A stretch of 64,000 nt of DNA from the human T2T-CHM13v2.0 reference genome, Homo sapiens. A model generated the notes under the pieces. The model did no database searches. It was not told where the DNA came from and worked only from the letters and a program-made list of their open reading frames with translations. The number at the start of each line of letters is the position of its first letter. Position 1 is the stretch's first letter. The translations under genes were made by a program, and so were the position numbers. This document shows positions 33,971 to 44,796 of this stretch, piece by piece. The stretch is taken from assembly GCF_009914755.1 (NCBI RefSeq), contig NC_060927.1; one strand, given 5' to 3'.

Positions 33971-35607
33971 TCTAATCGTTAGTGAAATTGGAGTAAAGCA
34001 GAATTAGCTTAATCTCATTTCCTTCCCTTTCCTTTTCCTCCTTCCTGTGGTGCTCTCCAAGTCTGTCTGGTATGTAATCCTTTAGTACTTTCATTTCTCC
34101 AACTAAGAGATTCATTGACTGGTCGTCTCAAATCATATTACAAAGTAAGTAAAAGAGGAAATATCCCTTCTCGTTTTAACAGCTATGAAACCTGAGGCAA
34201 GAAACCTCATAGGTAAACACTGAGACTTATTCAACGCACTGAGTTTAAAAGGACTTGGTGATAAATTTAAATGCAGCTTGATGTTTTAAGAGTGTATTTT
34301 TTTAAAATTTTTTTGTATGTATTTTTGGGTTTTTTTTTTTCAGTTTAATGGCCTTCCAGCAGCACCCAGTATCATGCAAATTTAAATCAGTTTTTAAGGG
34401 TAGCACTTAGAAAGCAATTATCTGAAAGTGCATATTTTGATATGGCATCATTGAACACTAATTAACAACTGGCTTACTGAAGAAGCTGTCAATTCTCTTT
34501 TATCTATGAAATATGCTACCTAAGTTCTGCAAACCTGATCCTAGCCTGCAGTGAGCACCTTCCTAGATTCTTTCCAAAAAGTCATTTTGAATCTGCATCC
34601 CGAATCTATCTGTGGGTTGCGCTGATTTCAAAAAAAAATAACCAAGGAATTTCAGGTAAGGCCCTGACAGAGATGATTATCAGTTAAGTTACCTGCTTTT
34701 AAAATATTTTCTCCCAACATGAATTTGAATATTGGCAGCTGTTTAGAAGGATGAGCTATTTCAGACCAAGAAGCATGGAAAGTAAATTTACCCCTGTGGC
34801 TGCTGGCCATAGAGAATAGGAGTTCAAATGGATTTTCTAAACTGTGCAAGGAATAAAAATTTCTTGTTTTTGTTTCGTGTCTGAATGTTTTCCATGAAAC
34901 TAAAATCGAACACAGAGCAGTTAAAAAGAAATCTGAACATTTTCCTACAGGGGATTTTTGAAATGGATTACTGCTTTTCCTAAGGAAAAAGAAAAAGTAA
35001 AGTGTAGAGCTAAAGGTGGGAATTTTACAAGGTGATAAATTCAAGTCCAAGAAGACTAAGTCATGAAAATTATATCTTCTTTCACGTTTAATAATGCATG
35101 GATCTTTCTATTATAAATATTGATGAAGATATTTATTTTCAGATTACAATGTTACTAAAGATATATATATATACTAATTTATTTATTAAATATAGCAAAC
35201 ACTAGGTTGCCACAAAAGCAAAATGAAACAGAGGAAGTGGCTTTTTATCTAGCTAATTGAGACAAAAACCATCCTATTCAAGGAAAGAGAGATTTGCATT
35301 CTCCAAAACCCATTTCAGTAGTTCCCATTGATCATACGCACCGGATAATAGCTAATTTCTTCATTTTTATTTGCCTATTTGTTTCAAATTATGTTGAGTG
35401 GTGTCAAAACAGGATATTGTTTGGGCAAACACAGAAGCCAGTTCATCTGCTGCTCTTCGTGAGTTCCTTGCCCTGCTCTCTCTGCTTGTGGAGATCAGTG
35501 TCCGGTTATCTACACACATCATGGCAGGTTGCTTATGATGTCTTCAGTATTCCAGTAGTTCCTGTCACAGTCCTCAGGTAAGCTCAGGGCACCTAAGACA
35601 CAGATAA

Positions 35608-40342: not shown

Positions 40343-40840
40343 TACATGTATACATTTTTGAATTCCAAAATTCTACTTTAGCAATGACAACAAAGATAAA
40401 AAGGGCATACTCTTACAACATAATACACTTTTAATTTATGTAAATAAAATTTTATAACATGATAAAAGAATTTTGAACCCAGAAATAATTTTATTCTTGG
40501 AGAAGGGATATTTTACACAATACTAATTATGATAAATAATATGTATCAAGCACTTACCATGTAGCAGATTTTGTGCTGAGTGCTCTACATCATGTCACTT
40601 ATTCTTTTAAAAAAATTCTTGTGGGTACATAGTAGGTATGTATTTATGGGATACATGAGATGTTTTTATACAGGCATGTAATGTGAAACAAGCGCATCAC
40701 TGAGAATGAGGTATCCATCCCCTAAAGCATTTATTGTTAATGTTACAAACAATCCAACTACACTCTAAGTTATTTTAAAATGTAAAAATAAGTTATTATT
40801 GACTATAGTTATACTACTATGCTATCAAATAATAGGTCTT

Positions 40841-40946
40841 TTTTTTTTTTTTTTTTTTTTTTAGATGGACTGTATCTCTGTCACCCAGACTGGAGTGCAA
40901 TGGAGTGATCTTGGCTCACTGCAACCTTCACCTCCCAGGTTCAAGG
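40841..40946 (-). mobile_element. 5'-truncated AluS in the L1MA 3' UTR
   Basis: poly-T plus about 85 nt of right arm; TSD caaata(a/g)taggtctt at 40826-40840 and 40948-40962. Confidence 0.9.
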
Positions 40947-42599
40947 GCAAATAGTAGGTCTTATTCATTCTTCCTATTTTTTTCTACCCATTAACCATGC
41001 CAGCCTTCCCCCCTCCCCCCTACTACACTTCCCAGCCTTAGGTAACCACTCTTTTACTCTCTATGTCCATGATTTCAATTGTTTTCAGTTTTAGATCCCA
41101 CAAATCAGTGAGAACATGTAATGTTTGTCTTTTCTATGCCTGACTTACTTCACTTAACATAATGATCTCCAGTTCCATCCAAGTTGTTGCAAATGACTGG
41201 ATCTCATTCTTTATGAATGACTGAATAGTACTCCATCGTGTATATGTACCACATTTTCTTCATCCATTCATCTGTTGATGAACACTTAGATTGCTTCCAA
41301 ATCTTAGCTATTGCAAACAGTTCTGCAACAAACATAGTAGTGCAGATATCTCTTTCATGTACTAATTTCCTTTCTTTTGTGTATGTATCCAGCAGGGGGA
41401 TCGCTGGATCATATGATAACTCAAGCTGTTCTCCATAGTGGTTGTACTAATTTACATTCCCACCAAGTATACAAGGGTTCCCATTCCTCCATATCCTCTC
41501 CAGTGTTTGTTATTGCCTGTCCTTTGGATCTAAATCATTTTAACTGAAGTTAGCTGATATCTCATTATAGTCTTGATTTGCCTTTCTCTGGTAATCAATG
41601 ACATTGAACACTTTTTAGTATGCCATTTGCCATTTGTATGTCTTCTTTTGAGAAATGTCTATTCAAATCTTTTGCCCATTTCTTGTCAGATTATTAGATT
41701 TTTTCTTACAGAGCTGTTTGAGCTCCTTATATATCCTGGTTATTAATCTCTTCTAGGATGGGTAGTTTGCAAACATTTCCTCCCATTCTGTGGGTTGTTT
41801 CTTCACTTTGTTGATTGTTTCCCTTGCCGTGAAGAAGCTTTTTAATTTCTTTTTTTTTTAGAGTTGTCAGAAATTTTTATTTATTTTAAGAAGTAACATT
41901 GGTTATTGATTAGACATATATCATTATGGTTTAGAGTATGAGATATAGTGTCCAATGTGGTATTATTAGTTTAATATATATCTACTTGTGGCAATAGTGA
42001 ACAGTTTCAAGAGATGAATACATAATTTAAATTGGAGAATGACATAACTGCACTTTCATTTCAATGTCTGAGTTTGATAACCAAAAGGACTTGCATTTTT
42101 AGATAAAAATTTTCTATTCCCCAAATCTCAAGACCTGGATACAAAATGTAGAGCTGCAGATTTAGGGCCCGAATGGCTGGAGTAGCAGCAGGTGTTACCT
42201 ACACATTTGTGAACATTTTACCAAGATAAAAAAGGGGAAAGTGGAGATTCTCATGTCTGCATGTGTACTCAATGAACACGTTACTCTGATCAGGTTTGTG
42301 GGCCCCATGGTCTCTGAATCAGTTTCAGGGCTGAAGATAACAAGAGTCATTGAGATAAAATCATTGATTGTTGCCCAGTGAAGTTGGTAGAAATTTGGTC
42401 TAGTTTCTCTAGAAGTGACTGTAGAGGACTATAGATACCAAATAGGCAGAAATACAGTTCTGCCTGCATATTTAGGGGACAGCATGCACTTTGTTGCACA
42501 AGTGTGAGTTGACTGGAAGTCTGAGAGGGAAAGTCCCCTCTAGAGTAAATTCTGGTTGGTACCTCATGTGTTTATATCATGTCTGGTAATTATAGATAG

Positions 42600-42976
42600 T
42601 GTTTGGAAAAAATAATTAAAAGAATTTTCTCCAGCCCCAGAAAAACTCCACGGTAGAACAGAAAGAAAACTGTTTTATGTGACATGCGTCATAGTCAATC
42701 TGCTTAAGAGACTGCAGAGACAGAAAGATGGTCACCAAAATTAGTCCACAAGTAGAAGAATTTCCAGCACCATGTCATACATAGTTCATCCTAAATTCAC
42801 ATGGAGATTGAAGAGGCCATCTGTATATGCTAATTGTTTACATTCAATAACAAAAAAACTTTTCACATCTTCATAACAGGAGGTAGTTTAGCTTGAAGCC
42901 AGGTACTTGCTGAAGGTAGGCTTTCACTCTGCTACAAAAATGGTTGAAAAACATTCTATCCTTTTGGCTATTTACA
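42600..42976 (-). mobile_element. ERV1-type solo LTR (possibly MER93-like) inside the transduced segment
   Basis: Minus strand reads tgtaaatagccaaaagg...ttttccaaaca (TG...CA); family name is from recollection only. Confidence 0.5.
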
Positions 42977-43249
42977 TTTTAGAGCAGTGGCTCTGTGCTC
43001 CGTGGCATTCAGCTACAGCACTTGCTTGCTTTTTCCTGGTTGCTAGTGTCCTCTCTTGACCTCTATCATCTGCCACTGAGGCACAGCCTTGAGCACAGCT
43101 CAGTTTATGTGAACCACATTTCCCACAGCAGCACTCTAGTGTCACATCAGAGAGGAAAGCCTGAGCTGCAGGAGAGCCTGCAGGCCTTGTGAGTAGAATT
43201 GCACCTTCACAATAATGGGAATGTGACCAGTGTTTCAGCCCGTCTATTG

Positions 43250-43977
43250 ATGACTTCAGAACAATTAGCATAGTTATGTGTAGTGTTTGCAGACACTACA
43301 CATAACAATACATTCATATACATTAAACAGTATTTTCTTTTTCTTTTCTTTTTTTCTTTGAGACAGAGTCTCACTCTTGCCCAGGCTGGAGTGTAGGGGC
43401 GTGTTCTGCTCACTGCAACCACTGGGACCCAGGCTCAAGTGATTTCTCCTGCCTCAGCCCCCTGAGTAGCTGGGATTACAGGCACACACCACCATGCCTG
43501 GCTAAGTTTTTGTATTTTTAGTAGCGATGGGGTATCACCGTGTTGGCCAGCTTGATCGTGAACTCTTGACCTCAGGTTATCCACACACCTCAGTCTTCCA
43601 AATTGCTGGGATTACAGGCATGAGCCATAAACAGTATTTTTTACAATAGTATGAATATAAAGCCACAATACTTACTTTGAATGAATCACTTAAATGGTTA
43701 TTTTAATATTGTTATTTACACTTTTGAAATATAAACTGTTTTAACTGAAGTATAGTTAAATTTTTTTAAATGACATATACATTACTACTAGTTTATTAAA
43801 ATTATTTATACTTAGATATTTAATCTAATACCCCAAAAAATTTACTACCAAACTGTTACACTTGATATTGGTCTGACATGTTTATTACTTTATTCAATAG
43901 GGATAATTATAAGTAAACACAATTTTAGTATCTTTTATTTCACTCAATTGGAATGCTGCTATTACAAATGAAATAAA
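43250..43977 (-). pseudogene. BNIP3P: BNIP3 pseudogene 3' UTR fragment, Alu-interrupted, carried in the insertion
   Basis: Minus-strand blocks catgtcagac, tttggtagtaaatttt, tataaataattttaata, tttatatttcaaaag, tattgtggc.ttata and ataactatgctaattgttc occur in the same order as in the BNIP3 3' UTR as I recall it. Confidence 0.8.
43337..43627 (-). mobile_element. AluS lacking its first ~12 nt, inside the BNIP3P fragment
   Basis: TSD taaacagtatttt at 43324-43336 and 43628-43640. Confidence 0.93.
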
Positions 43978-43996
43978 GAGGCTTTTAAAATATTTT

Positions 43997-44120
43997 TCTC
44001 CCTCTCCCTTTCCCTCTCCCCCTCCCTCTCCCTCTCCCTCTCCCTCTCCCTCTCCCTCTCCCTCTCCCTCTCCCTCTCCCGTCTCCCTCTGTTGCCCAGG
44101 CTGGACTGTACTGCTGGTGG
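43997..44120 (+). mobile_element. SVA (SVA_A/LAVA-type) 5' end: (CCCTCT)n plus start of the Alu-like domain
   Basis: About 14 CCCTCT units followed by gtctccctctgttgcccaggctggactgtactgc; no VNTR or SINE-R. Confidence 0.88.
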
Positions 44121-44796
44121 GAAGCTTTTTAATTTCATTAAAAAGCCATAACAAATGGACAGATCCCATCTGTCCATTTTTGCTTTGGTTGCCTATGGTT
44201 GTGGGCTATTGCTCAAGACATTTTAGCCTAGACCAATGACCTGGAGATTTTTTCCCGTGTTTTCTTGCAGTAGTTTTATATCTTGAGGTCTTAGATTTCA
44301 GTCTTTAATCCATTTTGATTTTATTTTGTATTTGGTGAGAGACAGGGGTCTAGTTTTATTCTACTCCATATGGATATCCAATTTCCCAGCACCATTTATT
44401 GAAGATATTGTCTTCCCAGTGAATGTTCTTGGCACTTTTGTCAAAAATGAGTTCACTGTAGGTGTGTAGATTTGTTTCTGGGATCTCTATTCTGTTCCTG
44501 TGTTTATGCCAGCCAATACCATGCTGTTTTGGTTATTATAGCTCTGGAGTATTAATATAATTTGAAAGAAGGTAATGTGATTCCTCCAGTTTTGTTCTCT
44601 TTGCTTGGGATAGCTGATATGGTTTTTCTGTGTCCCCACCCAAAACTCATCTTGAATTGTAACTCCCATAATTCCCACTTGTGGTGGGACAAACCAGATA
44701 AGAGGTAATTTAATTATAGGGATGGGTCTTTCCTGTACTCTTCTCATGATAGTGAATGAGTCTCATGAGATCTGATGGTTTTAAAAATGGGAATTT

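What the first reader, a model, noticed from the sequence alone, without database searches (positions are those of the whole stretch)
41860..43996. Cargo looks like a copy of a pseudogene from a KRAB-ZNF cluster
The BNIP3-like 3' UTR is well diverged, already contains an AluS with its own TSD, and runs on into non-BNIP3 DNA and an LTR before the poly(A). It was therefore copied from a genomic BNIP3P locus rather than from BNIP3 mRNA. Many BNIP3P copies lie in the primate ZNF91-family cluster (19p12), and ZNF91 is a known SVA repressor. A donor there is inferred, which would make this SVA-linked export of DNA from the cluster that encodes its repressor.
Basis: partly seen in the sequence, partly recalled or inferred. 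Interest (0 to 1): 0.7.

Follow-up and report, generated by a model that had tools for sequence, protein, structure and literature searches.

The report
Scrambled copy of zinc-finger intron RNA
A 2.3-kb piece of DNA from the chromosome 19 zinc-finger gene cluster, partly flipped and tipped with a scrap of an SVA jumping element, sits inside an old LINE-1 on chromosome 3; it was likely pasted there by LINE-1 from an intron RNA and is likely a functionless fossil, with no link shown to the SVA repressor ZNF91.

Summary
The donor guess is right; the anatomy and mechanism are not. The insert (41850-44120, 16-bp target duplication, poly(A)) comes from one BNIP3-pseudogene locus at chr19:20.358-20.361 Mb (94.8-96.5% identity; 74% to BNIP3 itself) and shares its Alu. 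The copied RNA ran antisense to BNIP3P, on the strand of a KRAB-A exon 13.6 kb downstream, so it was likely an early-polyadenylated intron RNA of a zinc-finger unit. The 'run-on' DNA is the pseudogene's 5' flank. Only about 120 nt of an SVA_A-like 5' end is present, and the reference donor has no SVA at that point. Four further copies that group with the same donor, on chr4, 5, 11 and X, show no SVA. Best model: twin priming with an early switch onto an SVA in a now-lost donor allele (0.5); rival: a switch onto a separate SVA RNA and back (0.33). Both have published precedents. No zinc-finger coding DNA was carried, and the event likely predates ZNF91's reported 8-12 My change. The LTR could not be tested. 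Real, structurally unusual, of modest interest.

The parts
41834..41849 (.). Left target-site duplication, GAAGCTTTTTAATTTC (16 bp), inside an old L1
   Evidence: the flanks are continuous pieces of one repeat matching four other copies in the window; L1 ORF2 identity recalled from translations
41850..41859 (-). Poly(A) tail, not templated in the donor
41880..41885 (-). AATAAA about 20 nt before the poly(A); the only one on the RNA strand of this segment
41860..43243 (-). Non-inverted segment, donor C19:20,358,105-20,359,478: 5' flank of BNIP3P and the first ~70 nt of its coding part, read antisense
   Evidence: 94.8% over 1389 columns; 54 substitutions in 1370 columns
43120..43131 (-). Candidate internal priming and switch site on the donor RNA; resembles the last bases before the right duplication (12 of 13 nt)
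   Evidence: suggestive only, query length chosen after seeing the match
43243..43244 (.). Inversion junction with 1 nt of microhomology
43244..43979 (+). Inverted segment, donor C19:20,360,809 down to 20,360,073: BNIP3P 3' UTR with the RNA running antisense to it
   Evidence: 96.5% over 741 columns; 74% to BNIP3
43324..43640 (-). Alu (43337-43627) with its own 13-bp duplication, inherited from the donor
   Evidence: the same Alu end at this site in 10 of 29 related loci
43980..43997 (+). 18-nt leader absent from the donor; likely 5' flank of the SVA's own source
   Evidence: leader plus hexamer found only here with up to 2 mismatches
43998..44115 (+). SVA 5' stub: 15.5 CCCTCT-type hexamers and about 35 nt of Alu-like region; no VNTR, SINE-R or SVA tail
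   Evidence: SVA_A label recalled
44116..44120 (+). Few non-SVA bases before the duplication; likely the first bases copied from the donor RNA
44121..44136 (.). Right target-site duplication (16 bp, identical to the left one)

Best explanation
This insert is a partly inverted copy of one chr19p12 BNIP3-pseudogene locus, bounded by a 16-bp target duplication and a poly(A), likely made by LINE-1 from a zinc-finger intron RNA that likely carried an SVA in a donor allele since lost. Shown: donor, inversion, duplication, tail, RNA strand, SVA stub, and no SVA at this point of the reference donor. Inferred: (1) the RNA began at the promoter of a KRAB-ZNF unit, ran antisense through BNIP3P and was polyadenylated in intron 1; (2) the first nick primed on the poly(A) and copied 1.38 kb; (3) the second nick primed on the same RNA about 120 nt inside that stretch, copied a few bases and jumped upstream by a CTGCTG match into the SVA's Alu-like start; (4) it then copied the hexamers, the 18-nt leader and 736 nt of upstream intron, and joined the first cDNA by 1 nt of microhomology. 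This happened roughly 13-17 My ago, and the product has no evident function.
For: One donor for both segments; window and donor pair at 100/99 support on the 3' UTR segment. Of 34 unit rows examined, 31 lie within 15 kb of a KRAB-A exon, and all 31 lie upstream of it on the RNA's strand; the donor's exon is 13.6 kb away. Undoing the inversion puts the SVA stub in the same sense as the RNA, full to its 5' end. The donor bases before the junction hold an endonuclease-like site with 1 mismatch, found for 14.6% of nearby positions. The last 13 nt before and into the right duplication match the donor RNA near the junction (2-4 of 1000 shuffles; 23-28 of 1000 for a 25-nt query). Precedents: 'twin priming and 5' switching' in 20 tumour insertions (10.1101/2024.08.27.596794, passages); an inferred lost source SVA, and 24 of 55 source SVAs polymorphic (PMC12593883, passages). 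A second, younger SVA sits about 5.3 kb away in the same intron.
Against: The reference donor and 29 of 29 related loci lack SVA hexamers near this site, so the source allele is unseen. No sibling SVA with the leader was found. The priming-site match was tested after being seen; the wrong strand scores 23 against 25 over the whole span, and a weaker second site exists. Without the jump this model needs a gap of over 2 kb, against a median of 14.5 bp in tumours. Exon 1 and the RNA itself were not observed. On the non-inverted segment the window-donor pair has only 87/93 support, and the chr5 copy is as close over its 574 columns.
Confidence: 0.5

Rival explanations
1. Two-RNA chimera: the donor never held an SVA. 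During twin priming the short second cDNA switched onto a separate SVA RNA by the CTGCTG match, ran off its 5' end and jumped back onto the donor RNA.
For: The donor site is empty. The same RNA was copied four other times without visible SVA. A switch from an mRNA onto SVA RNA is proposed for SVA-CKS1BP (PMC12593883). Chimeras with other RNAs by switching or twin priming are described (PMC13174262, passages).
Against: It needs two switches, the second without microhomology, and it leaves the endonuclease-like site at the junction to chance (14.6%). The SVA that would have supplied the leader is also not found.
Confidence: 0.33
2. Two steps on chr3: an ordinary inverted retrocopy came first, an SVA later inserted into it, and a microhomology deletion removed most of the SVA and the rest of the inverted arm.
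For: It accounts for the endonuclease-like site, the full SVA 5' end, the empty donor and the CTGCTG match.
Against: The deletion must stop within about 10 nt of the target duplication and leave it intact, which an early template switch predicts and a later deletion does not.
Confidence: 0.12
3. One reading: an SVA-started transcript read BNIP3P in sense and ran on through flanking DNA and an LTR to a poly(A), as one colinear cargo.
For: SVA sequence lies inside the duplication and the donor is in 19p12.
Against: The two segments map to opposite donor strands, and the poly(A) segment lies 5' of BNIP3P. The donor has no SVA there.
Confidence: 0.02
4. DNA-level duplication or repair capture from chr19, with no RNA step.
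For: The cargo is unspliced genomic sequence, and 21 extra, partly fold-back bases lie next to the right duplication.
Against: Untemplated poly(A) 20 nt after AATAAA, a 16-bp duplication, and sister copies ending in poly(A) at signals of the same donor.
Confidence: 0.03

Closest known systems
L1 twin priming with 5' switching (10.1101/2024.08.27.596794, passages read)
   Same: 5' inversion, short microhomology at the junction, and an inferred upstream jump of the internally primed cDNA.
   Different: There the template is L1 RNA in tumours and the switch leaves an internal inversion; here it is a germline intron RNA, both inverted pieces keep one orientation, and the jump lands in SVA sequence.
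SVA transductions, including SVA-CKS1BP (PMC12593883, section 7 and passages read)
   Same: SVA and pseudogene sequence within one duplication; a lost source SVA and a template switch are both invoked there.
   Different: Here only about 120 nt of SVA 5' end survive, inverted; the pseudogene is genomic and antisense; no offspring family was found.
Processed pseudogenes and retrocopies of polyadenylated RNA
   Same: Poly(A), duplication and 5' truncation; four sister copies are of this plain kind.
   Different: The template is an unspliced intron RNA, not an mRNA.
BNIP3P copies in ZNF91-subfamily clusters (19p12, 7q11)
   Same: The cargo is a direct copy of one of them, with its Alu.
   Different: Those lie upstream of KRAB-A exons and likely spread by segment duplication; this one moved through RNA and lacks 594 nt.

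Membership tests
L1-made retrocopy | Target-site duplication | tested here: met
   16 bp, identical
L1-made retrocopy | Untemplated poly(A) after a signal | tested here: met
   AATAAA at 41880-41885, tail at 41850-41859, absent in donor
L1-made retrocopy | Endonuclease consensus at the first nick | tested here: inconclusive
   TTTC/AT, near the recalled TTTT/AA consensus
Twin-priming insertion | 5' part inverted against the poly(A) part | tested here: met
Twin-priming insertion | Internal priming site close to the junction | tested here: inconclusive
   12 of 13 nt match 112-123 nt from the junction; post-hoc shuffles 2-29 of 1000
SVA transduction | SVA and flank inside one duplication, in the same sense on the RNA | tested here: met
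   stub at 43998-44115, same sense once the inversion is undone
SVA transduction | A source SVA at the origin locus | tested here: not met
   empty site in the reference; other haplotypes and apes not available
SVA transduction | Source element's duplication kept in the cargo | tested here: inconclusive
   only the 5' side survives; endonuclease-like site there, background 14.6%
Processed pseudogene of BNIP3 mRNA | Closest to BNIP3 mRNA, sense, tail at the BNIP3 3' end | tested here: not met
   74% to BNIP3 against 96.5% to the chr19 copy; antisense; inherited Alu
KRAB-ZNF intron-1 RNA | Upstream of a KRAB-A exon on the same strand | tested here: met
   donor 13.6 kb upstream; 31 of 31 near units concordant among 34 rows
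KRAB-ZNF intron-1 RNA | Exon 1, promoter and 3'-end reads at the site | not testable with these tools
   no expression data; the upstream stretch was not read beyond 3.2 kb
LTR at the poly(A) end | Match to a named LTR family | not testable with these tools
   no repeat library; no match outside cluster copies among held sequences; six ORFs gave no Pfam family over cut-off

The most novel reading that the evidence does not exclude
The chr3 insert is the only surviving trace of a vanished SVA_A that once sat, in sense, in intron 1 of a ZNF91-family unit. That one intron RNA served as a long-lived source of at least five retrocopies, before and after the SVA arrived, and the insert records a germline twin-priming jump of more than 2 kb.
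Probability: 0.45. Interest if true: 0.45.

Novelty: new member of a known kind. Interest (0 to 1): 0.3.

Why it matters
It is a clear germline fossil of a complex LINE-1 event (inversion plus template switch into SVA), it may mark a lost SVA allele in the zinc-finger cluster, and it shows one intron RNA yielding several retrocopies over time. It gives a testable prediction for ape assemblies. It does not bear on how ZNF91 represses SVA: no zinc-finger coding DNA moved and no function is indicated.

Tried and rejected
Search for the SVA that supplied the leader: one pattern held a typing slip and found nothing; the corrected one found only this locus. A pattern for SVA tails followed by the leader's end gave 7 matches, of which 1 is an SVA end; that element starts inside its VNTR and lacks the leader. 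The SVA 5.3 kb from the donor has a different 5' end, flank and strand. A near-match to the leader at 34694-34711 is within chance (8 of 100 shuffles). Sibling copies carrying the missing 594 nt: no high-identity hit outside the donor among 40 of 71 candidates scored. A first KRAB query belonged to another subfamily and was uninformative. A 12-kb pairing rule with 40 exons missed the donor's exon; the fuller list and a 15-kb rule include it. The idea that SVA drove all five copies was dropped: the chr5 and chr11 copies keep sequence at an upstream poly(A) signal that window and donor have both lost, so they are older, and none shows SVA. None of the four reaches the SVA junction, so orphan transduction is not excluded outright. 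Six ORFs gave no Pfam family over cut-off. Five papers sought by id were not held.

Full report
Anatomy. The insert sits in an old L1; its flanks are continuous pieces of one repeat that matches four other copies in the window at 70-75% (L1 identity recalled from the translations). A 16-bp duplication brackets it at 41834-41849 and 44121-44136, with ten T at 41850-41859, so the element reads on the minus strand. It therefore ends at 44120, not 43996.

Donor. The best non-self hit for 41860-43320 is C19:20,358,105-20,359,478 at 95%, and the next is 88% (40 of 426 candidates scored). The best for 43629-43996 is C19:20,360,073-20,360,422 at 97%, but on the opposite strand (40 of 59 scored). Alignment to the donor gives 41859-43243 on + (94.8%) and 43243-43979 on - (96.5%), with 594 nt between them absent. 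That stretch holds BNIP3 coding remnants. The BNIP3 3' UTR on chr10 matches at only 74%. Window and donor pair at 100/99 in a 31-row tree of the 3' UTR segment. The Alu end and its duplication appear at this site in 10 of 29 related loci, 6 of which could not be scored, so the Alu marks a sub-cluster and not the donor alone.

The junction at 43243/43244 is an inversion with 1 nt of microhomology. The poly(A) segment lies 5' of BNIP3P, and the RNA ran antisense to the pseudogene. I paired 34 of the 65 rows (the longer matches on C19 and C7) with 63 KRAB-A exons listed. Of these, 31 lie within 15 kb of an exon, all 31 upstream of it on the RNA's strand, and 3 have none that near. The donor's exon is partial and 13.6 kb away; an earlier 12-kb rule on a shorter list did not reach it. 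I infer an RNA from a KRAB-ZNF promoter, polyadenylated in intron 1. Exon 1 was not seen, and I did not name the gene.

Sister copies. Four dispersed matches on C5, C23, C4 and C11 end in poly(A); three have duplications and two have inverted pieces. All four fall with window and donor in one clade of a 32-row midpoint-rooted tree (99/96). None has an SVA motif within 1 kb. Window and donor share the loss of 15 nt that held an upstream AATAAA; the C5 and C11 copies end at that site and keep the sequence, so they are older. Two limits apply: none of the four reaches the SVA junction, and copies of other paralogs could lie among the unscored candidates. The C16 match (73%) was not examined.

The SVA stub. 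After donor position 20,360,073 come 18 nt not in the donor, 15.5 hexamers and about 35 nt of Alu-like sequence that matches the 5' ends of intact SVAs (the SVA_A label is recalled). The donor continues with BNIP3P sequence there, and 29 of 29 related loci lack a run of three hexamers. No other place has leader plus hexamer within 2 mismatches, and the one SVA tail candidate was rejected. The donor bases before the junction hold an endonuclease-like site with one mismatch, as do 14.6% of nearby positions. The last bases before the right duplication match the donor RNA at window-equivalent 43120-43131 in 12 of 13 nt, and an SVA reading like L068 shares CTGCTG with that site. Shuffles reach that score in 2-4 of 1000 for a 13-nt query, 10-29 of 1000 for 15 nt and 23-28 of 1000 for 25 nt. 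The lengths were chosen after the match was seen, the wrong strand scores 23 against 25, and a weaker site exists 43 nt upstream of the junction. This is suggestive, not proof.

Mechanism. The first nick primed on the poly(A) and copied 1.38 kb. The second nick likely primed on the same RNA near the junction, switched after a few bases into the SVA's Alu-like start, and continued through the leader into 736 nt of upstream intron. If the SVA was in the same RNA, one jump suffices but the allele must be lost (0.5). If it was a separate RNA, two switches are needed (0.33). A later SVA insertion with deletion is possible (0.12) but must stop almost at the duplication. Twin priming with 5' switching is reported for 20 tumour insertions, and junction deletions there have a median of 14.5 bp (10.1101/2024.08.27.596794, passages). 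A lost source SVA and an mRNA-to-SVA switch are both inferred for SVA-CKS1BP, and 24 of 55 source SVAs are polymorphic (PMC12593883, section 7 and passages).

Age and the repressor link. Window and donor differ at 73 of 2103 columns, 3.5%. At a recalled rate of 1.0-1.3 per billion sites per year this is about 13-17 My. SVA_A is given as about 13.6 My old and ZNF91's rapid change as 8-12 My ago; the same paper calls chr19:20-24 Mb the most SVA-dense region (PMC6928650, passages). ZNF91's role as SVA repressor is supported (PMC8015857, passages). The insert holds no KRAB or finger sequence, so an SVA-associated event from this cluster is expected by density and tells nothing about repression.

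In print. Searches for BNIP3P with retrotransposition and for ZNF91, ZNF93, SVA and BNIP3 together found no paper. Listings showed none on this locus; those had no occurrence of BNIP3. The T2T repeat preprint reports 76 5' and 55 3' SVA transductions and does not mention BNIP3 in its main text (passages); its supplementary table was closed and may list this event. PMC5640379, PMC10681720 and PMC3921586 were seen as passages and added nothing specific.

Verdict. A real, well-resolved and structurally unusual retrocopy built from known mechanisms. New member of a known kind; interest 0.3.

Noticed in passing
L076 (about C19:20,351,345-20,352,830, + strand): A separate, younger-looking SVA lies about 5.3 kb past the donor's poly(A) site, between it and the KRAB-A exon, antisense to the donor RNA.
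   Followed up: partly
window 44140-44160: 21 extra bases in the L1 flank just outside the right duplication, partly a fold-back of neighbouring sequence; absent from the other L1 copies compared. It may be a repair scar of the same event.
   Followed up: partly
L032:4209-4830 (C5), L033:3920-4693 (C23), L034:3745-4019 (C4), L035:4220-4680 (C11): Four more retrocopies that group with the same chr19 donor, using at least three poly(A) sites; two have inverted pieces.
   Followed up: yes
C19 19.9-24.3 Mb and C7 65-67 Mb: The BNIP3P unit lies antisense and upstream of the KRAB-A exon in 31 of 34 rows examined, so it looks like part of the duplicated gene unit of this subfamily.
   Followed up: partly
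C4, C15, C21, C22 near 45-59 kb: Identical-scoring BNIP3P and KRAB-A pairs near the starts of four chromosomes, in the same antisense layout.
   Followed up: no
L078 (C7:69,302,057-69,304,249): A 5'-truncated SVA starting inside a long VNTR.
   Followed up: partly
window 40837-40945: A short Alu fragment with a long T run inserted in the same old L1, about 900 nt left of the insert.
   Followed up: no
C16:38,545,096-38,546,267: A 73% match to the donor's 5' flank outside the chr19 and chr7 clusters.
   Followed up: no
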